This document shows, in pieces, positions 19,663-43,300 of a stretch of 64,000 nt of DNA. Numbering within the stretch: position 1 is the first letter of the stretch; each line of letters starts with the position of its first letter. The notes below the pieces were generated by a model, which was not told the origin of the DNA, did not search any database, and saw only the letters and a program-made list of their open reading frames with translations. Both the position numbers and the translations under genes were made by a program. The DNA comes from Candidatus Omnitrophota bacterium. GTDB taxonomy: Bacteria; Omnitrophota; Gorgyraeia; Gygaellales; Profunditerraquicolaceae. The DNA lies in NCBI GenBank assembly GCA_028716245.1, contig JAQUQW010000003.1, positions 84,638 to 148,637 on the forward strand. The letters are read 5' to 3'.

Positions 19663-19663
19663 C

Positions 19664-20512: not shown

Positions 20513-20520
20513 TTTTTATT

Positions 20521-22697: not shown

Positions 22698-22707
22698 CTT
22701 AATACTC

Positions 22708-22756
22708 CTTGCCCACACGGGCACACCCGCATAATTCCTTATAAGCGCGGAGTGTT
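22708..22756 (-). promoter_or_regulatory. Conserved leader/operator element (copy B) upstream of the SBP-permease-GH transcription unit
   Basis: cttgcccacacgggcacacccgcataattccttataagcgcggag. It aligns 39/45 with copy A, with the same TGCCC-N4-GGGCA palindrome immediately 5' of the RBS. Confidence 0.5.
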
Positions 22757-22860: not shown

Positions 22861-23556
22861 TCAGGCACGTAGGAGGCGCGAAACACCCATAAGATCAGCC
22901 CTTTCCAACTCAATACCCGAGCGATATCCGGTTACTCCTGCTAACCTGGACCAGACAACCTGCCCCCTTGTGTATAAAGGGTCGGTACTACCGGGAACAT
23001 CCAGCCAAATCTCTAAAGGAGTATTAGATTCCAATTCGTTTGCGGTGGATAACCCCAAACCTTTTGCGCTTACGTCAAATGTCTGAGCCTGCCCTTCTCT
23101 TCCGTCTAAGCCGATAAACCGGGCGGAAAACTCCTTCTTGAACCTTTCGAAGATCCGATGATCATTCATCCCTTCGCCTCCTTTCTCTTTTTCCACCTTT
23201 ACAGCTCCCAGCCACGGCTTCTGCTTTGAACCATTAGGACGATACATGTTGATAAATTTATAAATTTTGTCCTTATCCGCGTCCTTTATCCTGCTAAAAT
23301 AAAGCCCGTAATGATTAATGCCGTTAACCGCCTTGTGCCAGGCAACCCAAATTTCCGCCTCAACGGTATAATTTTCAGAGAGCCGTAAACTCATCTTAAG
23401 CTGGCGATCCTGCGGCAATTTTGTATTTAAAGTAACCTTTGCTCCTTTAGAATTGATATCCTTGATCTGGCAGAATAATTCCTCGGTCACCTGCTCTAAC
23501 TTAAGCGCGGCGTGTTGATTCACCTGCCATCTGGCTAATCTTCTGCGTTCCTGCAT
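22861..23556 (-). CDS. Tandem PilZ-domain protein (putative c-di-GMP receptor)
   Basis: 231 aa with two PilZ signatures: ERRRLARW ... DINSKGAKV, and DHRIFERF ... DVSAKGLGL (RxxxR + D-x-S-x-x-G). Confidence 0.55.
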   Translation of the reverse strand: MQERRRLARWQVNQHAALKLEQVTEELFCQIKDINSKGAKVTLNTKLPQDRQLKMSLRLSENYTVEAEIWVAWHKAVNGINHYGLYFSRIKDADKDKIYKFINMYRPNGSKQKPWLGAVKVEKEKGGEGMNDHRIFERFKKEFSARFIGLDGREGQAQTFDVSAKGLGLSTANELESNTPLEIWLDVPGSTDPLYTRGQVVWSRLAGVTGYRSGIELERADLMGVSRLLRA

Positions 23557-28951: not shown

Positions 28952-31900
28952 TTAATTCCTTGTCATCACTTCACCTGCAGCTGTCTCTACTTTTTCAGCT
29001 TCTTTTTCAACATCTTTGGCTTTCACCCCTGTGCTAATCGCTGCGATGAGATTCTTATCGCTGAGCGTTTCCAGAGACGCCTTATTTACAAGTAGAAAAT
29101 CCCTGACTTTTTTCGCGCTCACCTTTAATCCATTGGCGATATCAATTAGAGCTTGCGCTTTTTTCAATCCAATCATTACTAACAATTCTTTGGCTTGCAT
29201 AACTGCCAGCGCTGAACTGCCGCCTGTTGAGATATAAATCCCCTCGCCGGAGATGCCAAACTGCTCTGCCATTGCTCCGGTATCCGAACCCACTAATCCG
29301 ATATTGGCTTTGTTTTTGGCGGCTTCCAGGCAAGTCTTGCCAACCTCTTTTGAGCCAACCTCAAACTGCGGTATTTCGCTCACGCCTAGCGCGCCATTCC
29401 AAACATTCCATCTTCCGGCAGGAGTCTGAAGAATAATTTTGCTAAACTCTTCAATACTCTGTTTATAAATATCATAGATGAAAAGATTTTTAGCGATTAA
29501 TGTATCTCCTGATTCGGTATCAGCGAATGTACCCTGCTTCAACTGCTCCAGGGTTACATGATAAATCTTGGCGTTTTGGGGAATTTTCTTTAACTCAAGC
29601 CAGGATTTTTCACTGCCTTCAGCCGGTTTGGTTAAATCCATATTCACCACCACAAAATCAGAAGGCAACGCCAATTTGATGTTATATTGCTTAGACAGAT
29701 CAATAATACTCTGGGCTTGTTTAAGATCGTTCTCGCCGACCTTTGCTCCGACCTCGATATTATGCAGTGCTTTTAAGAATGGAGCAACCGGCCCGGTTCC
29801 AATCATTAGGAATCCGCCCTCCTTCATGTTCGGGATGACTTTTTGCAGCATCGGCACCTTCTCGCTGACCTTGGGGCCTCCGCCGATAATAACTCCGTGA
29901 AGATTTTGCAAAGCAAGTTGTAGATTTTTATCCTCATTTTCCATTATCAAGCCAAGGGCGATCTTTTCCACGTAGTTGGCGACTAAATCCAATGATCCGC
30001 CGGTCCTTTCCGCCGCGCCAAAGGCGTCAAAAATAAATACCTCATTATCCACTAAATCCGCCAGCCCCGCGGCAAAAGACGGATCATTTCCTTCTTCTCC
30101 TTCATAGAAACGGCTATCCTCAAGGATATTTATCGCGCCAGGAATGATTCTTTGCTTTAATCCTTTTGCTAACCCCTTAGCCGTTATGCTATTCTCATGA
30201 AACACCGCTTTATAATTGTATCCTTGCGCTTCTAAAGCTTTTTGGATTTCTACGGAAATCGGCCCCATAGAATATGCTTTATCCACTTTCCCGTCGGGCC
30301 TTCCATTATGGCTGATAACTACCACAGTCTTAGCTCCGTTTTCCAAGGGATAAACCATGGTGCGTACGGCTTCAAAGATCTTCTTTGTTGATTTAATTTC
30401 TCCCTTTGCGCCGGAAACATTAAGGTCTACACGTTCAAGGACACTTTTACCTTCAAGCTCTGCCTTACCCCAACTGCTCATATAAGGAACAGTTGCAACT
30501 TCCGTGGTTTTAATTTGTACAGGAGCGGGCGTCAAAATTTCCTTTGCCCTTCTTGCGTCAACCATCCAGGGCGCCCATCTGTGCGCAATCTGGCCAGGTG
30601 CCGCGGATTGATTATCATAGAGGCCTTTGATTATTATGGTTTTCTTGTTATTAAGCACTTGGATCATAAACCCGTCAATAATCGAAACACTAGACCATCC
30701 TACAATAGAGTTGGTATCTAAAGGAGTGCCGGCAACACCGGGTATTCCTTCATAGAACCTGACCATACCATTTGATTTATTTTTTGCAAAGTTCCTCAAC
30801 GCGTCTCTGACTTCTTTTTCAGTAACTTCTTTTTTTAGATTCATCGTGATCGTAAAGGCGCTCCCCGTGATTGCGCCAACCCGTTTAGCCGTAATCGGGA
30901 AATTACCTTCCAATTCCGGGATTATCTTAAACAGGTTCTTGGCCGCTCCGGTAGAAGCTTCCTGGATATCCTGGATTATCGAGAACCCTCTCAAAACATC
31001 CACCGGATCTCTTTCCCTGCCGCTAGGTTCAGGGAAAACAGCGTTAGAAGCGGTCTGCGCATGAACCGTCTCACCAGAACCTGACTCAACGCCAAAAGCT
31101 TCATGCGCAGCGACAATCGCAGAAATCATGGCATTAGAAGTACAAGATAAAGTATCTACTGCCCAGGTATTCGAAGTCACCTTATCTCTGTTAAAAGAAA
31201 ATAATGCTTCCTTGAAAGCAATTTTAGGATTCAAACCCGCTGCCTTAAGCCCGACTTTTATTCCGTCTTTATTCACCGGAGAAGCGCAGGCTACCGGCAA
31301 CCCCATCTGTATGAATTCTTTGATACGCAACGCCTGATAAGTGCCGCCTTTACCGCCTCCTTCATCTTTACCCGGGCCATATTCCGCGACTACATCCGGG
31401 CCGATTCCTAATTGCCTCATTATTCCCACTGCGTCTTTATTGCTTATTTCCGGGCCAAAATAAAGAATGCGCATTTCCGGCCGGCCTGAATTTTTATCTT
31501 CAGGAACAATAATAGTATCTATCTTCTTCCCATCTACATTTACAGGCTCACCGAGATGTAAGCCGGCGACTTGATATCGCGCGAACACTCCGCCGGAATA
31601 AAAATTCTGCCGAACAAATGCCGCAGCATTAAGTTGTTTAGCTCCTTTGAGTGTTTTTATGGCAACGATGTTTTGCCCCGGTTCCCATTCATTTAGCCAT
31701 GAATTAAACGCGCCTTCCGAAAAAATAACCGCGTTGCCGGCGCTGACAAAGATATTTGTCGGTTTCAAAGCAATGGCTAATTTCCTATCCAAGTCATCAT
31801 TCTTGAACAAATCCGCTTTGGCAATGCCTTTTAACGCAGCCAACTGCTCAGCGCTTAAACGATGGACTATCTTTCTTATCCGGCTAAACGTCTCGGTTTC

Positions 31901-33433
31901 AGTAAGGTTAGCCAATTTCCCCAACACAACCACCGCTTCCAGCCTGCTCAACTCTAATTTTTCGGCTTTGGGGAGGCTATTCAATTTCTTTGCTATACCG
32001 TCTAAGATTTCTGCTGATTTGACATCGGAAGCTAAAATTTCCTTGAGTTCCGCCATATTCAAAGAAGCCAATAAGAACTTTGGATTAGTCCGCATAAATT
32101 CAGCTTCTGCTTTTGCTAATGCCTGCTGCCAATCTCCCAAATTAGAATCTTGTTCGGCAATAAACAAAGATGTCCTGGAAGCATCAATTTCTCCTTTATT
32201 TATTGCTTCATAAATTCCTGCCAAGAATTGATCCGGAGGTGTTTTATCCTTATTGTCAAATGCTTTTAAATTAACGAAACAAACGTACTTATTATTGTCT
32301 GCTATGGCTGCCCTGCTTACCCCTTTAGCCACAGCAAGAAAACCGGGAACTTTTTTGCCTGAAGAGGCAAATAATACGCCATGGACAAGCGGAACGCCCG
32401 CCATATCCGGCCTATTACTTTTAACCGACATAATCCTATCGATATTCTTGCCGTCTACGCTTGCGCCATAAAGCATTAAAAATGATTTACCCCATATTGA
32501 GTTAACAATATCTTTACCGTATTTTACTTCAAGTAAATTATATATAGCTTGATGGACATCGCGAACCTCATCAGTATCTGCGGCTACATCCTTACCTCCC
32601 GCATCTGCGACCTTTCCGATTTTGTCCGGAGGTTCATTAGCGACATAAAACTTAGTATCTTTTAACCGCTCTGCCGGAATATGATTAAAATAAGCATTTA
32701 ACTGCGCTAAAATCTCCTCTTTGGAACCTCCAACGCAAATGGGTATATCTTTGATTCCGGCATCAAGCAATGCGAGGATACGATGATTTATAACTTCATT
32801 AAATCTTGCTGAAGCGATATTTTTAGCTTCAATTCGAGCCTTATCATTCGCAACAGGAATTTCTGTTAATAGATTTTCCATTGCTTTAGTCATTGTCTTA
32901 ATCCAAGCATCTCTTACTATTAAAGGAACAGTGCCTAATGTCGAATCACCTATTTTCACTGGCCCTACAGCTGAATTAAAACTATTTTCTGCGATTTCTT
33001 TAATCTTGATCTTAGCTAAATCTTTATCAATGCCGCCGGAAATTAAAAGGCGCTCTCCCACTTTAGTTAACTCCTTAATACAATCTTCCCTTGTTGCCGA
33101 ATGTCCTAAAAGAGCACCTGCAAGTTTTCTCTCTAATAATTGACTTAAGAGTATAATTTGACCAACATTTTTCTCTTGCTCCTTAGTAGTCTTACCTCCA
33201 ACTTTAAAATTTTCTGCAAAAATCTTGACGTTAGGTAAAGGCGTTCCACTTAGTTCCCTTTCAATGGAATCTATCATGCCAGAATTACTCTCTACTACCG
33301 GAGCGCGCAGCTTATCCACAGTACCTAAAGCGGCATAGCTTCTCACCGGAACACTGGTAATAATAAAACTTACCACGGCGAGGCCGGAAATTAATTTTGA
33401 AAACAATGATTTCTTAGGAAACTGTGCGAACAT
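28952..33433 (-). CDS. Giant secreted multi-domain protein (1493 aa) containing TPI-like, GAPDH-like and PGK-like domains in series
   Basis: The signal peptide is MFAQFPKKSLFSKLISGLAVVSFIITSVPVRSYA. The TPI-like domain carries VANEPPDKIGKVADAGG...LYGASVDGKNI (cf. AYEPVWAIGTGKTAT...IxYGGSV). The GAPDH-like domain carries LSCTSNAM (cf. SCTTN), TVHAQT (cf. TTVHA.T) and STGAAKNLFKIIPELEGNF...RVGAITGS (cf. STGAAKAV.KVLPEL.GKL.G.A.RVPT). The PGK-like domain carries ISHNGRPDG, LEDSRFYEGEEGNDPSFA (cf. LENLRFH.EEE.ND..FA), IIGGGPKVSEKV, WNVWNGALGVSE (cf. WNGPMGVFE) and ISTGGSSALAV (cf. STGGGASLE). Confidence 0.65.
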   Translation of the reverse strand: MFAQFPKKSLFSKLISGLAVVSFIITSVPVRSYAALGTVDKLRAPVVESNSGMIDSIERELSGTPLPNVKIFAENFKVGGKTTKEQEKNVGQIILLSQLLERKLAGALLGHSATREDCIKELTKVGERLLISGGIDKDLAKIKIKEIAENSFNSAVGPVKIGDSTLGTVPLIVRDAWIKTMTKAMENLLTEIPVANDKARIEAKNIASARFNEVINHRILALLDAGIKDIPICVGGSKEEILAQLNAYFNHIPAERLKDTKFYVANEPPDKIGKVADAGGKDVAADTDEVRDVHQAIYNLLEVKYGKDIVNSIWGKSFLMLYGASVDGKNIDRIMSVKSNRPDMAGVPLVHGVLFASSGKKVPGFLAVAKGVSRAAIADNNKYVCFVNLKAFDNKDKTPPDQFLAGIYEAINKGEIDASRTSLFIAEQDSNLGDWQQALAKAEAEFMRTNPKFLLASLNMAELKEILASDVKSAEILDGIAKKLNSLPKAEKLELSRLEAVVVLGKLANLTETETFSRIRKIVHRLSAEQLAALKGIAKADLFKNDDLDRKLAIALKPTNIFVSAGNAVIFSEGAFNSWLNEWEPGQNIVAIKTLKGAKQLNAAAFVRQNFYSGGVFARYQVAGLHLGEPVNVDGKKIDTIIVPEDKNSGRPEMRILYFGPEISNKDAVGIMRQLGIGPDVVAEYGPGKDEGGGKGGTYQALRIKEFIQMGLPVACASPVNKDGIKVGLKAAGLNPKIAFKEALFSFNRDKVTSNTWAVDTLSCTSNAMISAIVAAHEAFGVESGSGETVHAQTASNAVFPEPSGRERDPVDVLRGFSIIQDIQEASTGAAKNLFKIIPELEGNFPITAKRVGAITGSAFTITMNLKKEVTEKEVRDALRNFAKNKSNGMVRFYEGIPGVAGTPLDTNSIVGWSSVSIIDGFMIQVLNNKKTIIIKGLYDNQSAAPGQIAHRWAPWMVDARRAKEILTPAPVQIKTTEVATVPYMSSWGKAELEGKSVLERVDLNVSGAKGEIKSTKKIFEAVRTMVYPLENGAKTVVVISHNGRPDGKVDKAYSMGPISVEIQKALEAQGYNYKAVFHENSITAKGLAKGLKQRIIPGAINILEDSRFYEGEEGNDPSFAAGLADLVDNEVFIFDAFGAAERTGGSLDLVANYVEKIALGLIMENEDKNLQLALQNLHGVIIGGGPKVSEKVPMLQKVIPNMKEGGFLMIGTGPVAPFLKALHNIEVGAKVGENDLKQAQSIIDLSKQYNIKLALPSDFVVVNMDLTKPAEGSEKSWLELKKIPQNAKIYHVTLEQLKQGTFADTESGDTLIAKNLFIYDIYKQSIEEFSKIILQTPAGRWNVWNGALGVSEIPQFEVGSKEVGKTCLEAAKNKANIGLVGSDTGAMAEQFGISGEGIYISTGGSSALAVMQAKELLVMIGLKKAQALIDIANGLKVSAKKVRDFLLVNKASLETLSDKNLIAAISTGVKAKDVEKEAEKVETAAGEVMTRN
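29110..30460 (-). other. Phosphoglycerate-kinase-like domain inside the 1493-aa protein
   Basis: VDLNVSGAKGEIKST..VYPLENGAKTVVVISHNGRPDG ... LEDSRFYEGEEGNDP ... FIFDAFGAAERTGGSL ... IIGGGPKVSEKV ... FLMIGTGPVAPFL ... WNVWNGALGVSE ... YISTGGSSA: full-length match to both PGK lobes. Confidence 0.65.
30640..31630 (-). other. Glyceraldehyde-3-phosphate-dehydrogenase-like domain inside the 1493-aa protein
   Basis: FYSGGVFARYQVAG...VNVDGKKIDTIIVPEDKNSGRPEM..GIGPDVVAEYGPG (cf. KYDSVHGRF.G.V...V.GK.I.V..ERDP..L.W...GVDIV.E.TG). The catalytic Cys (LSCTSNAM) and His (TVHAQT) are both present. Confidence 0.6.
32350..32980 (-). other. Triosephosphate-isomerase-like domain inside the 1493-aa protein
   Basis: FYVANEPPDKIGKVADAGGKDVAADTDEVRDVHQAIYNLL...MLYGASVDGKNI aligns with the TPI catalytic-Glu loop (EPVWAIGTG), the His-containing region and IxYGGSV. 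The Glu is retained (ANEPP). Confidence 0.5.
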
Positions 33434-33453
33434 TTTTCTTCCTCCTTATAAAA

Positions 33454-36400
33454 TTAATTTTTACCGCTTACTGCGTTCTCTTCTATCTTTTGCTTCTCAG
33501 CTGCATCATTAATTTCTTTGGTTTCTTTCACTAGTGGCGCGAAAGAAACTATTATTTTTTTATTTTGATCGTCATTCTTATTTATATCTTCCATCTTTCC
33601 TTTAACGATTTTGATGGCGACATCGCCGATCTCTTGTAATTCTCCTTCTTTAGCCAATCTTCTCCACTCTTTCCAGTAGATATCGACGCCTGCCCAAGCT
33701 GCTCCCAACATTATTTTGTCAAAAGTTACAAAATTTAAACCCGTTCCAAGATCTTTGAAATATTCGAAATATTTATCCACAGCCAGTGTATCGCTAGGCG
33801 TAGCAATATTAACACCCAGCTGTAAGCCGTCTTCGCCGGGAATAATACCCATATCTTTCAAGATATATTTCCAAGCAATAATTACCGCGCCGCTCTGAGT
33901 TCCTTTAAGTTCGGTAATTTGTAAACCAAAATCCTTTCTTTCTTTGACAGGCAATGCCGCTCTTACTTCTTTAAATGCCTCTAACTCAAGGCGGTTGATC
34001 TCCCAAAAATCGCCAATCGCCCTGGCTGCTCCTAATAAACCATAGTCAGGGTTAGGATTAACCTGTTCCACCAAGAAACCGAAATTCATATTCCTAAATA
34101 CCAGGCAATTCAAACTTGTTGTCTTATGCACCACAAATTGCCCTTTATTTTTCTCTATAATTTCTTGCATCTGCTGCTTAAACGAATCCTTTATGAATTC
34201 CTTAGCGGATTTTCCGTTAAGGCGGCTGACAATTCTCTTCCTCATGTCCGCGAAATATCTATTCCTTAATTCTTCCAGCCAATTTTTAGATAACGCTGCT
34301 CCATCATTACGGGTTATTTTATCAAGTTTATCCTGTAAAAATTCTTTTATGATTTTCTCAGGTTCTTTTTTAATCTTTTCCTGTATTTCGTTAATTAAAC
34401 TCAGTTTCTTATCCTGGTATTTCTCTTTTGCGATTTTATCCAGCTCATCGATTAATTTCCCCACATATTCGTCAAATACTTTTCCTAAAGAATCTTCTAA
34501 AGTTTTACCTTTTATCTGTTCATTTTCAAACGCCAACAGAACTAACGGGTTAAACTCAATCTTCGAATAAACGCTATTCGCATTTTCTTCAACGGCCTGT
34601 TTTGTATCTATTTGCGGGTCATACTGCGGTATTGGCAAGGAGCGGACAATTGCTTTTTTCTTTTCAACCTTAAGATTACCTTTATAAATCTTCTTGGCTG
34701 CGTAGTCAATCGTGACAAATTGCCCTTCTAATTGCGGGCGCATCGCGCCTATACCCTTGGCAATAGCTTTTATTCTTGTAGGTACGATACCCTTGTCGCG
34801 GCGAAACACATCCCAGCCATCCAGATTTACGTCGCCATCGACAATAATTGCCTTCGCGTATTGCAAATCATCCCAATCAATGCCCCTTCTTTCAAGCCCT
34901 TCAATGGTATTGTCCCAGCATTTCTGCCAAATAGCCATTATTTTAGTCCGCTCATCATCACTGAATCTTCTATCTTTTAATTGAGCGGAAAATTTCTTAG
35001 CGTGCACGTTAAGATTGGTCCATACGTAAAGATTATTTCCTATAGGCTTAAGCAACCCCTCTCGTTTAAACTGTTCAAAATATGCCGGGGTCATCGCTTT
35101 CACTAATTCATCTTCAGAAATAGCGACAAGGTTTCGGTTTAAAACAACGACCTTATTATATGTTTTCATTGTGCTGCGCGCGCTCTCTAAGCTTTGTAAC
35201 TTTAAGAATTCTCTTTTCTCTTCTAACTCCGCGCCTTCCAACCCTTTTAACGCATCGGGCAATAAATCTTCCGCTTTCTCTACGTAAATCACTTCGCCTT
35301 TAATAACTCCTGTGCGTTGTTTAACTTCCCCTGCGTTTAGATCAAACAATACCTCTTTTTCCGATTCAGGCGCGATGATTTCTTTTGTTGCCGACATTGT
35401 ATCGAGCCGGGTCATCGATGCCAAAAGCCGGACCGACATCATGCTTATGCCAAAAGAATCCAATAAATTCATAATCTTTCCGGCAGAATCATAATCCCCT
35501 CTTCCCACTAAACTGGTAACCGATTCTCCGCAAAGGTTTATTCGGATACCTAGCTCTTTCGCTTCCTTTACTACCGCCTCCATTAACTGAATCATTACAT
35601 CCGCACCTTCGTCAATTAAAGGCAACTTCTTAATGCTATCATTATAGAAAAATCCCGCCTCTTTAATCGCGTTAATCGCTTTAATAGCCGCAGGGTCAAG
35701 AAGCTCCAGCTTCATCCGCGGATCTTCTCTGTCGCCTTTACCGGCAAGATGAGAATAATCGTTTGTTCCAAAAGAAAAAAAGGTAAGTTCCACCCCGTAT
35801 TTTTTGTATTTTTCCCTCATTGCCAGCAATTTCTTACCGAGTTTATCCGCCAGTATAGCGTCACTGGGAACTTCAATCATAATACCGATCTGTTTAGGCA
35901 GCTTTCCTTTTCTAGCCGCTATTCTCTCAAGAGCGATATCTAACATGTCCAATTCCCTGACGAATCGTATAAAAACATAAAACCAGGCTTGGTTATGGGT
36001 GTTCTGGTTAGCATCAATAACCGAGTCCAACAAAAAGCTCAACACCTTCTGATTACCATCAAAATCCTCATCTATTCCCTCAATTTCCAGAGAGGCGCCT
36101 CTTAAGCCCACTAATGGATTGACACCGGGCCAGGAAAATATTTCAGAGCCGGGCATCCCCCTAATTTTATCCTGCGCGAAGTCATAGGCCCTGTTCTTTG
36201 CTTTCTGATCCGGACTAACACTAAATCCCATTAAGTTATAGAAAGTACGAAATTCTGTCCCGACGTATTTCCCAAATGACGAATACCCTTTTTCTACCAA
36301 CTTGTTTTCTATCTCTTTAAGAATCCAAGGGCTCTTGTTTAATTGAGAAATAATATTATAATCAAAATTAAATCTTCTTTGCATAGCGCCGTATTGATCT

Positions 36401-39400
36401 GTTAACGCTGACACTATACCGGGTATTTTCATGGAATAATCTAATAAACGCAGTTGCTCCCTGTTTAGCGGGGAATCTTGCTCTCGTAATTTCATAAGAT
36501 CGAAAATACTTAACAATTTTATGCCGTCTTCAATCTTATATTCCCTGCTAAATTGCTCTTTAAAGCCATTTAAAATCTCCGGCTTATCCTTATAATATTT
36601 AAAAATTTCATTATTTACTTTAGAAACAAATTTTTCAGAGCCTTCAATCTTTCCTTCAATTAACTGCTCTACGGTTACCAGCTCCGGCATTTTTGAACGG
36701 CCCGCTTTAATATTCTGAATAAGATCGTAGCCGTAACCCGCGAATACATTCAAACCTAATTGCTCCGCTTTAAATTCAGCGCGGGTTAATGCATTACCCG
36801 CGTCATCTTCAGCCAGCATAATCGGCGCATTCTGTTGAGCGGTCGAATCCGAAGCAATAATCTGGCCGATTGAGGGATATGGCATTCCATCGTCATCTCC
36901 CGGGATACCGTATGGCTTAATCCTGAATTTTACGAAATTGACCGGGATTCTCTTTGCTGGATCAGGTTCAAGTTTGTATAGAAGACCATTATTGGCGTCT
37001 ACAGTTAAACCATCTCCCGTAGCCACAAGCCTTTCCTCAAGTGTAAACTTACCCACCCCTGTTACAGCCGGAATACCCTGCTCTCTGCAGAAAATTGCCG
37101 CGTGGCAGGTATCTCCTCCTCTAATAGTAATTACCGCGTCCACCAGCCGCATAATCGGATCATGGTTCGGATCCGCTTCTAACAAATATAACGCTATCGG
37201 CAAAACCTTATCTTTACCTATACCGAATTCATCGGGATTAAATCCCAGTTTCTTTATCTGCCTCTTTTCTTCATCGCTAAACTGTCCTGCCTTTAATCTT
37301 CTTATTGTCTCAGCATGCCAATCAATGGTTTTATTTGGGTCAAATACCAGCACATACGCTTCGGTCGCATTTTCGCCTTTTGTACCGCTGGTAATAGCTT
37401 TTATATTATTATCCTCAATAAATTTCTCGTCCACTTCACTTCTTTGCCGGACAACATCGGTTTTTTGAATAGCGGCGGTATAAGGACGCGCCTGCACGTT
37501 ATAGAGTTTTAAAACAACTTTTCCTCCCCTAGCTGTATCTTCAACTTTTACCAGTTTGCCGTCTTTTTGCATTTTAAGGCGAGCGCCATCCACATCGGCA
37601 GTATATGCTTCGAGCCGGCCTTCCTGGCCTTTAGGCACAGAAGGGTCTATCTCAACCGCGAACTCAATATCTCTCTGGTCTTTATAAAAATTTGCAATGT
37701 TCCATGCCATATGGGCAATCTCAATTGCTTCCTCATCGTTAATACTAAATGAGTCCTGATGAGTAGGCGTGGTTTCCAAATTACAGGTAAAGCTATTATC
37801 TACCAGCGCCCTTATGAGATAACTTAAGTTCCTCATTTCTTTAGCTTCTAACCCCAATTTTTTTAATACGTCGCCTCTATGCACTAAATCGAATTCCTTA
37901 TTTTCCCACACCTCTTTTGTCATCAGTATAAACGCTTCGGCTGTTTCTATGCTATTGCCAAAAAACTCATGCAAACTACTCATCCCGGCTTTTGCCTCAT
38001 TGCTGGCGTTTTCAACCGAAGCAAAAACTTCTTGTATTAATTTATTAACTGCCGATTCCTTTAGTCCATTCTTTTCATTATTAGGAGAAACATGGAAATT
38101 CTGCTTGATATATTCTTGTACCGCGCCTATTGAACTATTCGCCTTGATCATATTCGCTATATCTGTGGCGATTTTTTGTACTCGCGCTTTTTTATCTTTC
38201 TCGGTTTCTGTTTTATCCGGTAATTCGTTTAAATACCGTGTCCCGTATAAATTTGTGACCAAAATGCCGTTTATCCTTTTGTCAACCTCATCGTAACTAA
38301 TTGCTTTTTCCACCATACCTGCCAATGACCGTATCTTATCCTGGCTTAGTTTGCTTTTTAAGAGGTCGATCGATTTTTCAATGTTAATCATCTGAATAAG
38401 CTTAGTGCCCTTATGCCTTTCTAAGAAAAACCAGTTTATGCCGTCATAAGTAGCCATAACAAATTTATCCGGATCGACTTTCCCTCCAACTACATTTTCT
38501 CCATAACCATAAGCGATTTCAAAGCTGACTACTATCGGCTTTGTGCCGACTATATTGCCTTCTTTATCTAACTGCACCAGGCTTTTGTCGCCTTTCCAGG
38601 CCTTATATAATGCCTGTGAAACACCCGCCATCTTGGTCGCCGGGTTAACCGAAAAAATTACACCGGCCAAATAACTCCTAACCATTTGCATAATCACAAC
38701 GTCGATTCCGATCTCTTCAGGATGGATAAATTCCAAAGCGATTTTTTGCATCGTTTCCAAACTGTGTCTTATCTCGGGATTGTTTTCATATTTTAAAATC
38801 TCTTCCATCGCATTCATTAAATTTACCGAACCGGGATTGCGGTAATTAGTTAAAGTTTCGGCATAGTCGGTAAATTCCGGCTTGTTCAATCTTACAGCGT
38901 ATTCGCGGAGCTTATTGATTAAATCATAATATACGCGCTTGGGCTGCTTGCCTTCAAATTCGATTGCGCTGGAAAAAATCAAAAATATAGCATCATCTCT
39001 ATAGCTTACTGCCCTATCTGTAAAAAGGCTGGCCCAATCAGCTTTCAGTTTATCAAGCACATTTTTTTCACCGCTGACATTAAGAAAAGTATCGGATTGG
39101 CCTGCCTGGGAACCAGTAGTAATCGGAAGCCAAGACGAGACCTTGATATCTTCTTTTATACCCGAGCTTCTCACCGCAACTCTTGCGGGGATGTCTTTTT
39201 TCGCCAGAACGCGCAGGACATTCAACTGGCGATACATTACTAATACCTCGTTTTTGATATCATCCGGAATCGAAGAACGTTTCATGACTTCTCGGATTTT
39301 TCTAGTTATTGCGTCCCTTTTCTGGTCATCCATCGTATCTAATACTTTTAATTCTTCTTTGATTAAGTCATACAGTTCAGGGTTTGCTTTCACAAATTTA

Positions 39401-40257
39401 AAATAAGCGGTTGTGGTAACATTAAATCCGGGGGGAACGCTGACTACATCATCCATAATGGCCAGGCTCAACCCCTTGCCGCCCGCAAGCCTCAACCCGT
39501 CATTTTTTAAGAAAACCGCATATTCTTCTTTTAATATTTTAAGTTGGTTTTTAGCATCTGGGGTATTTTGTTGTTGTAGTTGTTTTATTTTTTCTTTATA
39601 TTCTTCGTTTTTATTCGTAAATTCCTGATCGTGATATAGCCTTAATTCACGGTAATCCAGAGTCATTCTGTCCGCGACAGCTATCGTAGCTCTCTTTTCC
39701 AAGAAAAGATAATCGGATAATACAATATCTATAGCTTTTATACCTTCTGCCTTAGCCTTAGCGGCATCTTCAACGAACGCCTCAAGCGGAATCTTCTTTA
39801 TGTCTTCACCAATTTTCTTTATGCTAAAACCCGCGTTGTCTTTTTTCACGAAGGCCACCGGTTCACCGATAAAATAAAGCACAGAATATTCTTCTCCGTC
39901 CTTTACCGAAGCGCCAAACACTTCTTCCATTTTCTTTTTCGCTTCAGGAGAATGCTCTAAATCAATTACCTGTTTAGAGTAAGTATCGAATGAAAAATTA
40001 ACGGTTGAAGAAACTTTATAATCACCCAGCATTTCCCGCATAAAGTCATTTTTAATGCTGGTTATGCTCAAATCTTCTGTGAACGCTTCTGGTCTTAGCT
40101 TGTCCGCAGCTGCATAGGCCTGTTTAATAGACGCATTAGTGAGAATAAAACTGGCTAACACAACTCCTATAATAAACTTTGAAACCAGGCCGTCTTTAGA
40201 AAACTGCGCGGACATTTTCTTCTCCTTTTTTAAATAAGTTTTTGATTTTTTATGCAT
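33454..40257 (-). CDS. Giant secreted multi-domain protein (2267 aa) with a complete PEP synthase / pyruvate-phosphate-dikinase-like module
   Basis: The N-terminal hydrophobic leader (..KFIIGVVLASFILTNASIKQAYAA) is paralogous to the leader of the 1493-aa protein. The PPDK/PEPS N-terminal ATP-grasp carries GGKGLSLAIMDD..PPGFNVTT..VAVRSSGIKED..WASLFTDRAVSYR. The phospho-His swivel domain carries RGGDTCHAAIFCREQGIPAVTGVG. The PEP-utilising TIM barrel carries IMIEVPSDAILAD...FFSFGTNDYSHL...NLCGESV. About 700 aa of unassigned K/E-rich C-terminal sequence follow. Confidence 0.65.
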   Translation of the reverse strand: MHKKSKTYLKKEKKMSAQFSKDGLVSKFIIGVVLASFILTNASIKQAYAAADKLRPEAFTEDLSITSIKNDFMREMLGDYKVSSTVNFSFDTYSKQVIDLEHSPEAKKKMEEVFGASVKDGEEYSVLYFIGEPVAFVKKDNAGFSIKKIGEDIKKIPLEAFVEDAAKAKAEGIKAIDIVLSDYLFLEKRATIAVADRMTLDYRELRLYHDQEFTNKNEEYKEKIKQLQQQNTPDAKNQLKILKEEYAVFLKNDGLRLAGGKGLSLAIMDDVVSVPPGFNVTTTAYFKFVKANPELYDLIKEELKVLDTMDDQKRDAITRKIREVMKRSSIPDDIKNEVLVMYRQLNVLRVLAKKDIPARVAVRSSGIKEDIKVSSWLPITTGSQAGQSDTFLNVSGEKNVLDKLKADWASLFTDRAVSYRDDAIFLIFSSAIEFEGKQPKRVYYDLINKLREYAVRLNKPEFTDYAETLTNYRNPGSVNLMNAMEEILKYENNPEIRHSLETMQKIALEFIHPEEIGIDVVIMQMVRSYLAGVIFSVNPATKMAGVSQALYKAWKGDKSLVQLDKEGNIVGTKPIVVSFEIAYGYGENVVGGKVDPDKFVMATYDGINWFFLERHKGTKLIQMINIEKSIDLLKSKLSQDKIRSLAGMVEKAISYDEVDKRINGILVTNLYGTRYLNELPDKTETEKDKKARVQKIATDIANMIKANSSIGAVQEYIKQNFHVSPNNEKNGLKESAVNKLIQEVFASVENASNEAKAGMSSLHEFFGNSIETAEAFILMTKEVWENKEFDLVHRGDVLKKLGLEAKEMRNLSYLIRALVDNSFTCNLETTPTHQDSFSINDEEAIEIAHMAWNIANFYKDQRDIEFAVEIDPSVPKGQEGRLEAYTADVDGARLKMQKDGKLVKVEDTARGGKVVLKLYNVQARPYTAAIQKTDVVRQRSEVDEKFIEDNNIKAITSGTKGENATEAYVLVFDPNKTIDWHAETIRRLKAGQFSDEEKRQIKKLGFNPDEFGIGKDKVLPIALYLLEADPNHDPIMRLVDAVITIRGGDTCHAAIFCREQGIPAVTGVGKFTLEERLVATGDGLTVDANNGLLYKLEPDPAKRIPVNFVKFRIKPYGIPGDDDGMPYPSIGQIIASDSTAQQNAPIMLAEDDAGNALTRAEFKAEQLGLNVFAGYGYDLIQNIKAGRSKMPELVTVEQLIEGKIEGSEKFVSKVNNEIFKYYKDKPEILNGFKEQFSREYKIEDGIKLLSIFDLMKLREQDSPLNREQLRLLDYSMKIPGIVSALTDQYGAMQRRFNFDYNIISQLNKSPWILKEIENKLVEKGYSSFGKYVGTEFRTFYNLMGFSVSPDQKAKNRAYDFAQDKIRGMPGSEIFSWPGVNPLVGLRGASLEIEGIDEDFDGNQKVLSFLLDSVIDANQNTHNQAWFYVFIRFVRELDMLDIALERIAARKGKLPKQIGIMIEVPSDAILADKLGKKLLAMREKYKKYGVELTFFSFGTNDYSHLAGKGDREDPRMKLELLDPAAIKAINAIKEAGFFYNDSIKKLPLIDEGADVMIQLMEAVVKEAKELGIRINLCGESVTSLVGRGDYDSAGKIMNLLDSFGISMMSVRLLASMTRLDTMSATKEIIAPESEKEVLFDLNAGEVKQRTGVIKGEVIYVEKAEDLLPDALKGLEGAELEEKREFLKLQSLESARSTMKTYNKVVVLNRNLVAISEDELVKAMTPAYFEQFKREGLLKPIGNNLYVWTNLNVHAKKFSAQLKDRRFSDDERTKIMAIWQKCWDNTIEGLERRGIDWDDLQYAKAIIVDGDVNLDGWDVFRRDKGIVPTRIKAIAKGIGAMRPQLEGQFVTIDYAAKKIYKGNLKVEKKKAIVRSLPIPQYDPQIDTKQAVEENANSVYSKIEFNPLVLLAFENEQIKGKTLEDSLGKVFDEYVGKLIDELDKIAKEKYQDKKLSLINEIQEKIKKEPEKIIKEFLQDKLDKITRNDGAALSKNWLEELRNRYFADMRKRIVSRLNGKSAKEFIKDSFKQQMQEIIEKNKGQFVVHKTTSLNCLVFRNMNFGFLVEQVNPNPDYGLLGAARAIGDFWEINRLELEAFKEVRAALPVKERKDFGLQITELKGTQSGAVIIAWKYILKDMGIIPGEDGLQLGVNIATPSDTLAVDKYFEYFKDLGTGLNFVTFDKIMLGAAWAGVDIYWKEWRRLAKEGELQEIGDVAIKIVKGKMEDINKNDDQNKKIIVSFAPLVKETKEINDAAEKQKIEENAVSGKN
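35450..39550 (-). other. PEP synthase/PPDK-like three-domain module (nucleotide-binding, phospho-His, PEP/pyruvate TIM barrel)
   Basis: See the parent CDS. The catalytic His (GGDTCHAA) lies near 37115 and the GTNDYSH/CGE motifs near 35560-35775. Confidence 0.6.
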
Positions 40258-40301: not shown

Positions 40302-40327
40302 GTAACCGGGGACGGGAAATTCCCGTC
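40302..40327. terminator. GC-rich hairpin ggggacggg-aaatt-cccgtcccc followed by ATTTTT (between the 1279-aa and 2267-aa giant genes)
   Basis: It shares the ccggggacg arm start with the nrdJ terminator palindrome at 7476. It has plus-oriented terminator geometry although the flanking genes are on the minus strand, so it may act bidirectionally or as an mRNA-processing/attenuation hairpin. Confidence 0.4.
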
Positions 40328-40348: not shown

Positions 40349-43300
40349 TTAAATTGCAACTACAGCCGCGACTTCTGCTTTATATTCTTCAACTGCATTT
40401 GCAATAGAAGGTATTACCGCATTAGATTTAACTGTAAAACTGCCCTTTGCATCTTGAGCGAATAATGCATCCAATGCCGTCAATTTATCATTGGTTAACG
40501 TACCCTCTGAAATGAGATTTAACGCTAGTTTCAATGCCTTAGCCATTGAAACTGTCTGTCCTTTTTCTTTTGTTTCCCCAAGTACGATCATATTCTCAGA
40601 AGAACCCTTGAACTGTTCAATATAGCCCTGAGAACCAATTACGACATAAATACCCGTGCCGAATTTCTCGTTTACAACGTTAACTACATTCGCGGGATTT
40701 TTGCCTACCACAATACTGGCGAACATATCCCGGTTTAAGTTAGTGAAATCTCCATTGATATCATTTACTTTCGCAAAGAACTTATCCACCAACTTATTCG
40801 CTTCTTCAGCACTTATTTTACTAGGAACATCGATAATAAACTTAATGTTGTTTTTGCTAAGCTCGCCTTTCTTAAGAAACTTTCCCTGCTTTTCAAGAAG
40901 TTGTTTAAGCACGTTTTCCAAAGCCATAACCCCATCAGGGCCTGATTCAACAAGAGCGGCATAGTTTATAACTACTGGGATGGCCTTATCACCACGCGTA
41001 TTTTTTTCCACAACAGCATCAGGGACATTAACGTCGATATCATCTGAGAATGCATCCATAATCGGCACCGCCGGGCCATACTTAACTAATTTAGAAACTT
41101 TGGCCCCGCCCTTAAAGGAAACTTTCTCTAAATACCTTTTACCGAAAAGAAGCTCTAAAACATCGGCAATTGTAGAGTTTTCATCCCCGCCTATCTCACC
41201 TACCTCAGTCTCGACTCCGCTGTCTTGGTGTATTAATGTTGCCAAAAACGCGCTAACCAATGCGTTTAACCTCATTGGCATAAATGAAGCATCTAAAGCA
41301 AATTCGGTAAAACCAGCTGCAACTTCCACCTCAACTAATTTATACGCCTTTTCAATTGCTTTAAGCGCGCCTAATACATTCTTTTGAGTTTGAGTAGGAT
41401 TGGATAACTCTTTTAATTCCTTAACTTTACTTGCAAAAATCGCTTTTCTCTGAACAATATCTTTTTCTTTTAAAATATTATTAAGAAGCTTGGCAACTTC
41501 TTCTTGGGCTTCCTTATCCTTCAAAAACTCCTTATCCGCTTTTACGGTTACATGGTCTCCTTTGATAATGAAATTTTTAAACCCAAGCGCTTTAGTTCTT
41601 GCTTTTATCAATTCAGCAAACTTTTTAGGATTGTCGAACGAAAAACCGCCCGCATAGGTATAATCCAATTCGCTCATTGCCTGCTGGAATATAACAAAGC
41701 TCTTTGTGTTGATTGCCGCTTTAATAATTCCATCTATACTCAAAGGCGTTCGAATATTATCAGCCATAATGATGCGATCTGTGTCTTTTAATGCGTCCAA
41801 AACAATACGCCCCGGATAAGAGGCGCCTTCCGGCACTATAAAAGGCTCGGGTTTGACAGAATCAATAATGCCGCCATTATTATCGACTAATCTGGTTTCA
41901 AACCAAGCGCAGGGCTTCCCGTTTACCACACCTAAACGCAAAAAATTGATTTTACTTCCTTGCTCTCCAATTTCTACGCCATCTGTTCTGAATACGCCAT
42001 TATTGCTGATAAATGCCATAGATCCACGAATACTGGCATCTATATCGCTATGCATATACAATACTTTACCGGCAATAATATCCTTCCATTCTTCGGGATA
42101 GGCTTTCTTTATGGCGTCTATTTCACTTTCTTGCTCCCCTTCTTTTGGTTTGTCGCTAAAAGCGTACCTGCGTTTTAAATCCTTTGCATCTTTACCATCC
42201 GAAGCCTTATTTACATTCTCAGAAACTAACCGATTAAAGACAAGCGCGCCTAATGCCTTAAATCCACTGCCTATGGCGCGAATATATTCTCCTTCCGGAG
42301 CGCCGACTAAAGTCATCATAACTTTATGTTTCTCTCTTGTTTTAATACCAAGGATGGCATCGATACCATGCGCTACCGTTCCGTCTTTGATAGTCGTAAG
42401 CGTTAATCCTTTATATTTTTCCTGCAATTGCTTTATTGCGGCTATTCTTGCTGTTTCTCTGGGCCTATCCATTATTACAACTTCTAAGTCGCCAATGGTT
42501 TTCCCGTTAGCTTTTGCAATCCTATCCAGCATTGCTTCTATTTTATTAATATCACCATCCGCGGTTAACTCCGGGTCTAATGGATTAGCAATAAATTCTA
42601 TCAACTTCTCAGGAGGCACCCGGGTAACAACCTGATCTATATAAGCATCTAAGGTATTACGCATAAATCTTTTAACACCGGGCCCATAAAGCATAATGCT
42701 GGTTGCCCCAGATTCTTTTTCTTTTAAATCTGCTGTTGCTTTTCCATATACATTAGCAACAAACGCGTTTGTTCCCTCGATTACATCCATAATCCCATAT
42801 TCTATTCTAAACTTCTCTCCGCTTGTTGATGTATATTCATCTAAACCATCCTCTATCGCGGCTTTAATAATCGCTGCTTCTTCCGCCTTAAGGCTTTCCG
42901 GGATTATAACATCGCCTGCCTTAAAGCTGGCTTTTAGCGCATCCCTGCCAAATCCTTCACTTACACGCGCTATTAAAATAATTTTTTCACGATTCACTAT
43001 TTCTTGGAATATTGCTTTTGCCGCTCCATCTGCTTCATCTTTAATAAGGTTTATTTGATTTTTAAGAGCATCTGTTTCATCTTTTTTTGTTTTAATTATT
43101 AATTCGTTATTTCCCGCCTTTTCTAGTTCTTTTACTTCCTTTTCCAAAGCTTCTTTCTTTATTACTAAATCTAGCGCTTTCCCACGTAAACCTTTTACAG
43201 TTAAAACAGCAGCGGTTGCGCCTGTGATCTGAAGAGAAAAATCATCTACTAAGGGCTTAAGCGGCTCATATCCTATTTTAAATACCGAACTTTTTCGAAC

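What the first reader, a model, noticed from the sequence alone, without database searches (positions are those of the whole stretch)
33300..40257. Paralogous N-terminal leaders on the PEPS-like and TPI/GAPDH/PGK giants
The PEPS-like giant starts MSAQFSKDGLVSKFIIGVVLASFILTNASIKQAYAAADKLR and the TPI/GAPDH/PGK giant starts MFAQFPKKSLFSKLISGLAVVSFIITSVPVRSYAALGTVDKLR. The two share AQF.K..L.SK.I.G...VSFI.T......YAA...DKLR. The shared leader suggests a dedicated targeting or processing signal for this protein family, such as a specific export route or sortase/rhomboid-like processing, rather than two generic signal peptides.
Basis: seen in the sequence. Interest (0 to 1): 0.6.

Follow-up and report, generated by a model that had tools for sequence, protein, structure and literature searches.

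The report
Shared address tag on glycolytic giants
In this Omnitrophota genome and its relatives, the oversized fused enzymes of sugar breakdown (glycolysis) all begin with the same conserved, signal-peptide-like tag of about 45 residues, so the whole pathway is probably sent to one place at or across the cell membrane, which is unusual for enzymes normally free in the cytoplasm.

Summary
The first 50 residues of the two proteins align with score 81. Shuffles give 22±4 (0 of 5000 reach 81), and the best of 120 real Omnitrophota signal or anchor N-termini scores 45.

A profile built only from homologues in other genomes finds both N-termini (52 and 47 bits). It also finds, weakly, a third: the aldolase/FBPase giant. 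It finds no other N-terminus in the window.

The 58-position leader profile alone retrieves 71 cluster representatives from 1.84 billion proteins, nearly all matching from residue 1. Their cargo is TIM, PGK, GAPDH, enolase, iPGM, PFK, GPI, aldolases, PGM and PPDK.

The leader has these parts:
- a basic n-region;
- a 14–17-residue hydrophobic core with a nearly invariant Phe;
- Pro at −6 and [S/G/A]-[Y/F]-Ala at −3 to −1;
- a D-x-L-R-P-x-A box.

These genes sit in a conserved locus: giant gene (here with a SecA-like module), a conserved 531-aa protein, the tagged enzymes, PilZ and a sugar ABC importer.

The leader is a dedicated address tag, most likely a specialised Sec-type signal. Whether the enzymes end up outside or stay tethered inside is unresolved. 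Nothing supports sortase or rhomboid processing. I found no published description of the leader.

The parts
33299..33433 (-). Leader of the TIM/GAPDH/PGK protein (aa 1-45): n-region MFAQFPKKSLFSK, hydrophobic core LISGLAVVSFIITSV, c-region PVRSYA (predicted signal peptidase I site A34|A35), then the DKLR(A)P box
40084..40215 (-). Leader of the PEPS/PPDK-like protein (aa 1-44 counted from the Met at 40215): MSAQFSKDGLVSK / FIIGVVLASFILTNAS / IKQAYA (predicted site A35|A36) / ADKLRPEA
44036..44158 (-). Probable divergent leader of the aldolase/FBPase protein (start at the Met at 44158): MLGQLNKKMWYR / LVSLVVTVTFVFSNIATAG / VVSTFNLRNN
28952..33433 (-). Leader-tagged fusion of TIM, GAPDH and PGK (1493 aa). 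The leader is its only hydrophobic segment.
33454..40215 (-). Leader-tagged PEP synthase / pyruvate phosphate dikinase-like giant (2253 aa from the Met at 40215)
40349..44158 (-). Class II FBP aldolase + GlpX-type FBPase fusion (1269 aa), with a divergent leader
44193..45788 (-). p531: a conserved Omnitrophota-specific protein of unknown function with an N-terminal signal or anchor. It always lies between the giant gene and the tagged enzymes. Invariant motifs are QDAHCNYEAQ, VEGG and GGFHT.
46337..63943 (-). 5868-aa giant membrane protein directly upstream on the same strand. It has a protein kinase domain (60110-60592), a Peptidase_M48 domain (53444-53923) and a C-terminal SecA-like module.
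46337..48856 (-). SecA-like module at the C-terminal end of the giant: SecA_DEAD (48359-48823 plus a second stretch), the preprotein cross-linking domain (47555-47908) and P-loop_SecA (47072-47374). A hydrophobic hairpin is inserted in NBD1, the module ends in a C-terminal TM segment, and there is no scaffold/wing hit. It is a candidate receptor or motor for the leader.
   Evidence: literature
22861..23556 (-). PilZ-domain protein, a conserved downstream member of the locus
17362..22724 (-). Sugar uptake set that ends the conserved locus: solute-binding protein, two ABC permeases and a GH2-like glycosidase

Best explanation
The two N-termini are copies of one conserved leader module of about 45 residues. 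In Omnitrophota this module sits at the N-terminus of nearly every glycolytic or gluconeogenic multi-enzyme protein encoded just downstream of the lineage's 'giant gene'.

Shown: its anatomy is that of a Sec-type signal peptide cleavable by signal peptidase I.
- A basic n-region, (M)F-x-Q-F-x-K-K-x-L-F-x-K.
- A non-amphipathic hydrophobic core of 14-17 residues with a nearly invariant Phe.
- Pro at about -6.
- [S/G/A]-[Y/F]-Ala at -3 to -1.
- 2-7 residues later, a conserved D-x-L-R-P-x-A box.
- In about 45% of members, a (K/R)-D-G-G box as well.

Inferred: the leader works as a shared address tag. It brings every enzyme of the pathway to the cytoplasmic-membrane translocon. The signal part inserts N-in and is probably cut after Y-A. 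The conserved face of the core and the LRP box are the lineage-specific elements read by a partner. Candidate partners are the SecA-like/M48 module of the adjacent giant protein and the conserved 531-aa protein. The glycolytic megaenzymes would then be gathered in one place at the outer face of the membrane or in the periplasm, beside the giant protein and the sugar importer.

I hold the 'dedicated shared address tag' part with about 0.85 confidence. I hold the 'translocated and cleaved' part with about 0.5.
For: Significance of the similarity.

Family-wide conservation:
- 16 of 17 N-terminally complete homologues of the TIM/PGK fusion in other genomes carry the leader. L and R of the box are at least 90% conserved.

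Specificity:
- The leader-only profile finds 71 representatives at E≤1e-3 among 1.84e9 proteins, almost all from residue 1.
- Of 34 long hits, 15 have TIM, 14 PGK, 6 PPDK, 6 GAPDH, 4 enolase, 4 iPGM, and one each PFK, GPI, DeoC aldolase, FBA-II and PGM.
- 10 of 10 mid-size hits have glycolytic domains.

Locus:
- In five loci from different genomes, every enzyme gene after p531 has the leader.
- In 79 p531 loci there are 32 leader hits on the p531 strand and none on the other strand.

Signal-peptide anatomy:
- A single N-terminal hydrophobic segment and no other TM segment.
- Mean hydrophobicity 0.69 and hydrophobic moment 0.12, like classical signal peptides in the window.
- The N flank carries +3.1 net charge against +1.35 for the C flank, and the N flank is the more positive in 80% of sequences.
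- The Pro and small-x-small pattern is visible.

Selection acts on the peptide, not the DNA. The leader is more conserved than its cargo, the opposite of a conventional signal from the same loci.

A SecA-like module and an M48 peptidase lie in the adjacent giant. West-Roberts et al. 2023 (bioRxiv 10.1101/2023.11.21.568195) independently proposed that such SecA-like domains export the giant 'or accessory proteins', and reported TMHMM placing glycolytic domains of giants outside the cell.
Against: - The cargo enzymes need ATP/ADP, NAD+ and phosphorylated intermediates, which are not expected outside the cytoplasm. Their catalytic motifs look intact: GAPDH SCTSN/TVHA, TIM N-x-K/H/E and PGK RVDLNV (read; motif knowledge is from memory).
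- The same conserved operon ends in a sugar ABC importer, a ROK protein and a LacI regulator. That fits cytoplasmic glycolysis.
- The c-region and early mature part carry basic residues (R/K at -4, K/R in the box; about 3 in 15 residues). In E. coli such residues hamper Sec export (own knowledge).
- No SignalP or DeepTMHMM run and no proteomic N-termini were available.
- The SecA-like module was not found in the last 1600-3250 residues of three other giants next to tagged enzymes, so the link between leader and SecA-like module is not shown.
- I could not check whether these genomes also have ordinary leaderless glycolytic enzymes.
Confidence: 0.5

Rival explanations
1. Cytoplasmic tether or docking tag. 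The leader is not used for export. It stays uncleaved and holds the glycolytic megaenzymes on the cytoplasmic side. It could do so as a membrane anchor, or by being clamped by the signal-peptide-binding SecA-like module (NBD1-PPXD-NBD2, without a functional scaffold/wing) of the giant protein. The result would be a membrane-bound glycolytic assembly next to the sugar importer.
For: - The cargo needs cytoplasmic cofactors and appears catalytically intact.
- The operon is linked to an ABC sugar importer, ROK and LacI.
- The hydrophobic core is conserved residue by residue (nearly invariant Phe, S-F..T-S face), which is typical of specific helix-protein recognition rather than of Sec signals.
- Basic residues sit in the c-region and early mature part.
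- The uncharged stretch averages 20 residues, long enough to span a membrane.
- The SecA-like module with its own TM segments is adjacent, with no SecA_SW hit. The literature says these modules lack the scaffold/wing domain, that normal SecA exists elsewhere, and doubts some 'extracellular' calls.
Against: - Charge distribution predicts N-in/C-out in 80% of sequences.
- The Pro(-6)/small(-3)/Ala(-1) pattern is what signal peptidase I needs, and an anchor would have no reason to keep it.
- There is no second TM segment to bring the chain back inside.
- The helix is not amphipathic, so it is not a surface anchor.
- The SecA-like module was not found at the equivalent position of other giants.
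Confidence: 0.3
2. Tat-like export. The leader is a divergent twin-arginine-type signal that carries the folded, cofactor-loaded enzymes across the membrane.
For: - The n-region S-K-K-x-L-F-x-K resembles S-R-R-x-F-L-K.
- The leader is long, about 35 residues up to the cleavage-type site.
- A basic residue is frequent in the c-region, like a Sec-avoidance residue, and is followed by an A-x-A-type site.
- Folded export would suit multi-domain, cofactor-binding enzymes (inference).
Against: - The basic pair is RR in only 3 of 84 sequences. It is KK in 32 and KR in 8, and KD, RN and NK also occur. Twin lysine blocks Tat export in model systems (own knowledge).
- Core hydrophobicity is not lower than that of Sec signals in the same window.
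- Cargo of 140-280 kDa exceeds known Tat substrates (own knowledge).
- No tat genes are in the window.
Confidence: 0.07
3. Inherited but ordinary signal peptide. The leaders are alike only because all these genes descend from one ancestral secreted fusion. The conserved residues have no function beyond generic Sec targeting.
For: - The leader meets the generic Sec rules.
- The cargo genes are clustered and clearly shuffle domains among themselves.
Against: - Generic signals drift fast. The p531 family's own signal is 20% identical while its mature part is 53% identical, whereas this leader is 38% identical against about 20% for its cargo.
- The leader is kept in front of non-homologous first domains (TIM, PGK, PPDK, enolase, iPGM, GPI, methyltransferase).
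- Synonymous divergence shows long-term purifying selection.
- A conserved box lies beyond the cleavage-type site.
Confidence: 0.08
4. Chance or compositional similarity of two hydrophobic N-termini, or a nucleotide-level element such as a recent duplication or gene conversion.
For: None beyond the fact that all signal peptides share composition.
Against: on significance; 63% nucleotide identity, and half of the identical residues use different codons.
Confidence: 0.01

Closest known systems
Sec-type signal peptides cleaved by signal peptidase I
   Same: Tripartite n-h-c layout, a single N-terminal hydrophobic segment, Pro near -6, small residues at -3/-1, and an N flank more positive than the C flank.
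   Different: - The residue-level sequence is conserved across paralogues and genera, and more so than the cargo.
- There are basic residues in the c-region and early mature part.
- There is an extra conserved D-x-L-R-P box.
- The cargo is normally cytoplasmic glycolytic enzymes.
Specialised conserved signal peptides: YSIRK-G/S, KxYKxGKxW of accessory-Sec (SecA2/SecY2) adhesins, and the ESPR extension of large autotransporters
   Same: A family-specific, sequence-conserved N-terminal leader on very large proteins, possibly paired with a dedicated SecA paralogue, as in the accessory Sec system.
   Different: - No sequence relation. NCBIfam, a library of curated protein-family models, gave no hit on the three N-terminal fragments.
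- Different phylum.
- The cargo is a metabolic pathway rather than adhesins.
- The SecA-like partner is a domain inside a giant membrane protein and is only a candidate.
Twin-arginine (Tat) signal peptides
   Same: Length, an n-region pattern polar-basic-basic-x-hydrophobic-hydrophobic, a basic residue in the c-region and an A-x-A-type site.
   Different: The twin arginine is absent from most members. Hydrophobicity is not reduced. The cargo is far larger than known Tat substrates.
Omnitrophota giant-gene loci (West-Roberts et al. 2023, bioRxiv 10.1101/2023.11.21.568195; 2026 preprint 10.64898/2026.06.07.730766)
   Same: The window is such a locus: a giant gene with a divergent SecA_DEAD/PP_bind module lacking scaffold/wing, followed by pilZ, solute-binding-protein transporters and glycosidases. 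TPI, GPI, FBPase, PGM, FBA and PPDK domains are reported inside some giants, with puzzling 'extracellular' predictions.
   Different: - In the passages my term searches returned (signal peptide, N-terminal, SecA, PPDK, glycolysis and the enzyme names), those papers do not describe the separate leader-tagged glycolytic fusions, the shared leader, the LRP/DGG boxes or the conserved 531-aa gene.
- Kizina et al. 2022 could not be read.
Pathway-wide targeting tags: PTS1/PTS2 on glycosomal glycolytic enzymes of Kinetoplastea, and encapsulation peptides of bacterial microcompartments
   Same: It works like these. One short shared tag sits on the successive enzymes of one pathway, implying co-localisation (functional analogy, own knowledge).
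   Different: No homology. Those tags are not hydrophobic signal peptides. No compartment is known in Omnitrophota.

Membership tests
Sec / signal peptidase I signal peptide | Positively charged n-region followed by one hydrophobic h-region at the extreme N-terminus | tested here: met
   one hydrophobic segment at residues ~10-30, N flank +3.1 net charge, mean hydrophobicity 0.69, hydrophobic moment 0.12.
Sec / signal peptidase I signal peptide | c-region with a helix breaker and small uncharged residues at -3 and -1 | tested here: met
   ...S-V-P-V-(R/K)-[S/G/A]-[Y/F]-A in most of 84 sequences. In the window: SYA|A and AYA|A.
Sec / signal peptidase I signal peptide | Few or no basic residues just after the cleavage site | tested here: not met
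   conserved K/R in the D-(K/N/S)-L-R-P box, about 3 basic residues in the 15 after the core.
Sec / signal peptidase I signal peptide | Actual translocation and cleavage | not testable with these tools
   Needs proteomic N-termini or reporter fusions.
Tat signal peptide | Nearly invariant twin arginine in S/T-R-R-x-F-L-K | tested here: not met
   RR 3, KK 32, KR 8, RK 1 of 84. KD (window PEPS), RN and NK also occur.
Tat signal peptide | h-region less hydrophobic than Sec signals | tested here: inconclusive
   Kyte-Doolittle means are 1.7-2.0 against 2.3-2.4 for two neighbours, but Eisenberg means equal the controls.
Lipoprotein (signal peptidase II) signal | Lipobox L-x-x-C at the end of the h-region | tested here: not met
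   No conserved Cys in the alignments.
Type IV pilin / class III signal | Short basic leader, G|F(M)-x-x-x-E, cleavage on the cytoplasmic side | tested here: not met
   Motif absent from the alignments.
YSIRK / KxYKxGKxW / ESPR conserved leaders | The eponymous n-region motifs | tested here: not met
   Motifs absent from the alignments. NCBIfam scan of the three window N-termini at E≤10 gave no such hit.
   The element is N-terminal. No sortase, exosortase or rhomboid domain was found in the window genes scanned, which cover 9980-63943 but not the six genes at 1013-9841.
Omnitrophota giant-gene locus (West-Roberts et al. 2023) | Giant ORF with TM segments and divergent SecA_DEAD + PP_bind lacking scaffold/wing; pilZ and SBP transporter/glycosidase genes downstream | tested here: met
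   compared with the description read.
Accessory Sec (SecA2) system | A second SecA dedicated to a small substrate set with special leaders, with genetic linkage of the two across genomes | tested here: inconclusive
   A SecA-like module is adjacent in the window. It was not detected in the last 1600-3250 aa of three other giants next to tagged enzymes. The full giants were not available.

The most novel reading that the evidence does not exclude
Glycolysis in giant-gene-bearing Omnitrophota is physically compartmentalised by a dedicated leader. All Embden-Meyerhof enzymes, fused into megaproteins, would take one of two routes. Either they are exported and operate outside the cytoplasmic membrane, in the periplasm or at the predator-prey interface. 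Or the giant protein's SecA-like domain captures them through their signal-like tag and builds a membrane-bound glycolytic machine. The second route would be a new use of SecA as a docking receptor.
Probability: 0.3. Interest if true: 0.9.

Novelty: new variant of a known kind. Interest (0 to 1): 0.72.

Why it matters
Glycolytic enzymes are the textbook soluble cytoplasmic proteins. Here an entire phylum-level set of them carries one conserved, signal-peptide-like address tag. The set covers PGM, GPI, PFK, aldolases, FBPase, TIM, GAPDH, PGK, iPGM, enolase and PPDK. The genes lie beside giant membrane proteins whose metabolic domains have puzzling 'extracellular' predictions in two recent studies.

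The leader turns that open localisation problem into a simple experiment on a 45-residue peptide, using reporter fusions, N-terminal proteomics or binding to the SecA-like module. It also gives annotators a searchable marker for this protein class.

If the enzymes are really exported, or docked on a SecA-like receptor, that would be a new way for bacteria to organise central metabolism. It would bear on how ultra-small predatory cells feed.

Tried and rejected
- Chance or composition: rejected by shuffles, by a null of real signal peptides and by an independent HMM.
- Recent duplication, gene conversion or a DNA/RNA-level element: rejected by 63% nucleotide identity and synonymous differences.
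- Amphipathic surface helix: rejected, hydrophobic moment 0.12.
- Known sorting-signal families: NCBIfam and Pfam gave nothing on the leader.
- Internal copies of the leader in the giant, p531 or p1758: none. Database hits are N-terminal only.
- SecA-like module as a constant neighbour: not found at the C-terminal ends of three other giants.
- Shared C-terminal domain: an HMM of it does not hit the window's three proteins.
- Literature: five full-text searches and the three Omnitrophota papers gave no description of the leader. Kizina et al. 2022 is not held.
- Whether leaderless canonical glycolytic genes coexist in the same genome could not be tested with the available look-ups.
Full report
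**What is in the window.** All long ORFs lie on the minus strand. From 63943 down to 17362 they form one tight array:
- a 5868-aa giant (46337-63943);
- a 531-aa protein, p531 (44193-45788);
- a 1279-aa class II aldolase + GlpX-FBPase fusion (40349-44188);
- the PEP synthase/PPDK-like giant (33454-40257);
- the TIM/GAPDH/PGK fusion (28952-33433);
- a 1758-aa Ser-rich protein with a classical signal peptide and no Pfam hit;
- a PilZ protein, a solute-binding protein, two ABC permeases and a GH2-like glycosidase;
- further on, ROK and LacI genes.

The TIM/GAPDH/PGK protein is 100% identical to a protein that NCBI names 'MAG: phosphoglycerate kinase [Candidatus Omnitrophica bacterium]' on a 152-kb contig.

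**Checking the observation.** Both quoted N-termini are present. The PEPS-like leader starts at the second Met (40215). This Met has an AAGGAG Shine-Dalgarno sequence in front of it, and an independent 2253-aa gene call starts there. The TGP start at 33433 has AAGGAGG in front of it.

The local alignment of the first 50 residues scores 81.
- Shuffles give 21.7±4.4, and none of 5000 reach 81.
- 120 genuine N-terminal signal or anchor sequences of Omnitrophota proteins give 22.4±5.2, with a maximum of 45.

At the DNA level the two leaders are 63% identical, and only 11 of 21 identical residues share a codon. The similarity is therefore maintained by selection on the peptide. It is not a recent copy.

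**It is a family, and a third member sits in the window.** Homologues of the TIM/PGK fusion from other metagenomes are giant fusions of TIM, PGK, GAPDH, enolase or GPI, 1500-2400 aa long. Of the 17 that are N-terminally complete, 16 carry the leader. An HMM built only from those foreign sequences was run against all 1187 candidate N-termini of the window.
- PEPS scores 51.7 bits and TGP 46.5 bits.
- The aldolase/FBPase protein scores 19 bits (E 6.5e-5).
- Nothing else is found.

Negative controls reach at most 16.2 bits (120 p531 N-termini) and 8.8 bits (1224 opposite-strand N-termini). Proteins at the same position after p531 in related genomes have a clear leader, for example MFKQIGKKDLFSRLVLSLVIICFVLSSVPVSGHAGLTIADKLRPQ. 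The window's aldolase copy is therefore a degenerate member.

**Specificity.** The 58-position leader profile alone was searched against 1.84 billion representative proteins. It gave 71 hits at E≤1e-3 (11 at ≤1e-10), nearly all beginning at residue 1 of the hit.

Pfam on 34 long hits gave TIM 15, PGK 14, PPDK 6, GAPDH-C 6, GAPDH-N 4, enolase 4 and iPGM 4. It gave one each of PFK, GPI, DeoC aldolase, class II aldolase, PGM/PMM and a methyltransferase. Ten of ten mid-size hits contain iPGM, PGK, TIM, enolase or PGM domains.

In the loci, a few tagged proteins carry other or no recognisable domains: F420_oxidored, GatZ/KbaZ + Metallophos, and an unknown 736-aa protein. The tag therefore marks essentially the whole Embden-Meyerhof/gluconeogenic enzyme set of these organisms. 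The two named hits are Omnitrophota.

**Anatomy.** The consensus is MF(T/A)QF(S/P)KKTLFSK-(I)ISG(I)VAVSFILTSVPV(R/K)-SYA-x2-7-D(K/N/S)LRP-x-A.
- It is the only hydrophobic segment in each protein.
- It is not amphipathic: hydrophobic moment 0.12, mean hydrophobicity 0.69, like classical signals in the window.
- The N flank is more positive than the C flank in 80% of 84 sequences, +3.1 against +1.35.
- Pro at about -6 and [S/G/A]-[Y/F]-Ala at -3 to -1 fit signal peptidase I. The predicted sites are A34|A35 in TGP and A35|A36 in PEPS.
- L and R of the box are at least 90% conserved, and a Phe in the core is nearly invariant.
- In 33 of 74 members a (K/R)DGG motif follows 8-25 residues later. This motif is 12-fold enriched over the rest of the proteins. 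The window's three copies lack it.

The leader is more conserved than the cargo, 38% against 20% pairwise identity. The p531 family from the same loci has an ordinary signal or anchor and shows the usual opposite pattern, 20% against 53%. One caveat applies: the 34-protein set was selected by leader similarity. The cargo-selected set shows the same conservation.

**Context.** The order giant gene, p531 homologue, leader-tagged enzyme fusions, (unknown protein), PilZ, sugar ABC importer, glycosidase recurs in four other genomes. The giants there reach 31,973 and 32,476 aa.

p531 is a phylum-wide family, with at least 556 hits in species-representative genomes, nearly all labelled Omnitrophota. 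In 79 such loci the leader HMM hits 32 ORFs on the p531 strand and none on the other strand.

The window's giant carries a protein kinase domain, a Peptidase_M48 domain and, at its C-terminal end, a SecA-like module.
- SecA_DEAD scores 5e-69, the preprotein cross-linking domain 2e-13 and P-loop_SecA 2e-40.
- There is no scaffold/wing hit.
- A hydrophobic hairpin is inserted in NBD1, and the module ends in a C-terminal TM segment.

This locus type is already published. West-Roberts et al. 2023 describe giant genes with divergent SecA domains lacking scaffold/wing, alongside normal SecA and SecYEG elsewhere in the genome. They describe downstream pilZ and solute-binding-protein transporters, and TPI, GPI, FBPase, PGM, FBA and PPDK domains inside some giants. 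Those domains are predicted 'extracellular', a call the authors themselves distrust. They suggest the SecA-like domains export the giant 'or accessory proteins'. A 2026 preprint meets the same paradox for 'multi-enzyme metabolic' giants. In the passages my term searches returned, neither paper mentions the shared leader, the boxes or p531.

**How it most likely works.**

Shown:
- a conserved, pathway-specific, strictly N-terminal module with full signal-peptide anatomy plus an extra conserved box;
- a conserved operon context that includes a SecA-like domain in the window.

Inferred:
- it is a common address tag that brings all these megaenzymes to the same site at the cytoplasmic membrane;
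- sequence rules (charge bias, -3/-1 pattern, no second TM segment) favour N-in insertion, translocation of the body and cleavage after Y-A;
- the LRP box is then left near the new N-terminus as the lineage-specific recognition element.

Against this stands biochemistry. The cargo enzymes need ATP, NAD+ and phosphorylated intermediates. Their catalytic motifs look intact. The operon ends in a sugar importer. Basic residues around the site are also unfavourable for Sec.

The main rival is therefore a cytoplasmic tether or docking tag, possibly clamped by the giant's SecA-like preprotein-binding module. A Tat-like route is unlikely, because RR occurs in only 3 of 84 sequences. I put 'dedicated shared tag' at about 0.85, export with cleavage at about 0.5, cytoplasmic tether or docking at about 0.3, Tat at about 0.07 and 'ordinary inherited signal' at about 0.08.

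The core idea, a dedicated signal rather than two generic signal peptides, holds. It proved much broader than two proteins. A conserved cleavage-type motif and a candidate dedicated component exist. Sortase or rhomboid processing has no support.

**Novelty.** No Pfam or NCBIfam model matches the leader. Five literature searches and three Omnitrophota papers gave no description of it. Kizina et al. 2022, which may discuss these proteins, could not be read. I class it as a new variant of a known kind: a specialised, conserved signal-type leader, comparable in concept to YSIRK, KxYKxGKxW or ESPR. Its cargo is unprecedented, a whole central metabolic pathway.

**Limits.**
- No dedicated signal-peptide or topology predictor was available, and no proteomic data.
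- No whole-genome inventory of leaderless glycolytic paralogues or tat genes was possible.
- The full sequences of the other giants were not available.
- The p531 fold assignment is unresolved.

Noticed in passing
window 46337-63943 (- strand): The 5868-aa giant combines a protein kinase domain (60110-60592), a Peptidase_M48 domain (53444-53923) and a C-terminal SecA-like module (46337-48856). The module has a hydrophobic hairpin inserted in NBD1, ends in a C-terminal TM segment and has no scaffold/wing hit. Simple TM counting would place the ATPase outside the cell, so the topology calls are unreliable.
   Followed up: partly
window 44193-45788; L005 5103-6620 and 18560-20071; L007 10001-11548; L008 10001-11494: p531 is an Omnitrophota-wide protein family of unknown function (at least 556 genome hits) with invariant QDAHCNYEAQ, VEGG and GGFHT motifs. 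It always lies between the giant and the tagged enzymes and is duplicated in one genome. The AF2 model (pLDDT 84) is an α/β core split by a 300-residue helical insert, with only weak erythromycin-esterase-like Foldseek hits. In distant lineages the domain forms the N-terminus of 1800-3800-aa fusions with NTP_transferase, PIG-L or hexapeptide domains.
   Followed up: partly
P0004-P0019 and at least 24 of the leader hits (last ~200 aa); window 40349-41050 for a variant: Many leader-tagged proteins also share a C-terminal domain of about 200 residues, ending ...EFMDKV, with no Pfam match. These proteins are therefore bracketed by a common N-terminal leader and a common C-terminal module. An HMM of this domain does not hit the window's three proteins. 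However, the last ~230 aa of the window's aldolase fusion match the C-terminus of the FBPase_3 protein in L005/L006 at 36% identity.
   Followed up: partly
leader family, residues ~45-75 (e.g. P0013 ...FIANELKKDGG|KAAAA): A (K/R)DGG motif lies 8-25 residues after the LRP box in 33 of 74 members, 12-fold enriched, sometimes repeated at a spacing of about 20 residues. It loosely recalls double-glycine leaders cut by C39 peptidases, a domain reported as common in Omnitrophota giants. It is absent from the window's copies.
   Followed up: partly
window 40257 vs 40215; 44188 vs 44158: The longest-ORF starts overshoot the likely true starts. The PEPS-like gene starts at the Met at 40215 (Shine-Dalgarno sequence plus leader alignment). 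The aldolase fusion probably starts at 44158, and the MKxKKTGGxxM extension recurs in related genomes.
   Followed up: yes
window ~40305-40335 (- strand): A G+C-rich inverted repeat (GGGGACGGGAAATTCCCGTCCCC) lies in the 91-nt gap between the aldolase fusion and the PEPS-like gene. It looks like an intrinsic-terminator-like or attenuator hairpin inside the otherwise tight gene array.
   Followed up: no
window 23653-28929 (- strand): A 1758-aa Ser/Thr-rich protein with a classical signal peptide and no Pfam hit lies between the tagged enzymes and PilZ. Other genomes have unrelated unknown proteins of 401-736 aa at this position, one of which carries the leader.
   Followed up: no
P0004-P0007, P0013-P0019 vs window 33200-33230: In the enolase-containing clade, the TIM-like domain reads AENVIVG/AENTFVG where the window's protein has AENFKVG. 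The catalytic Lys of the N-x-K motif therefore seems to be replaced in that clade.
   Followed up: no
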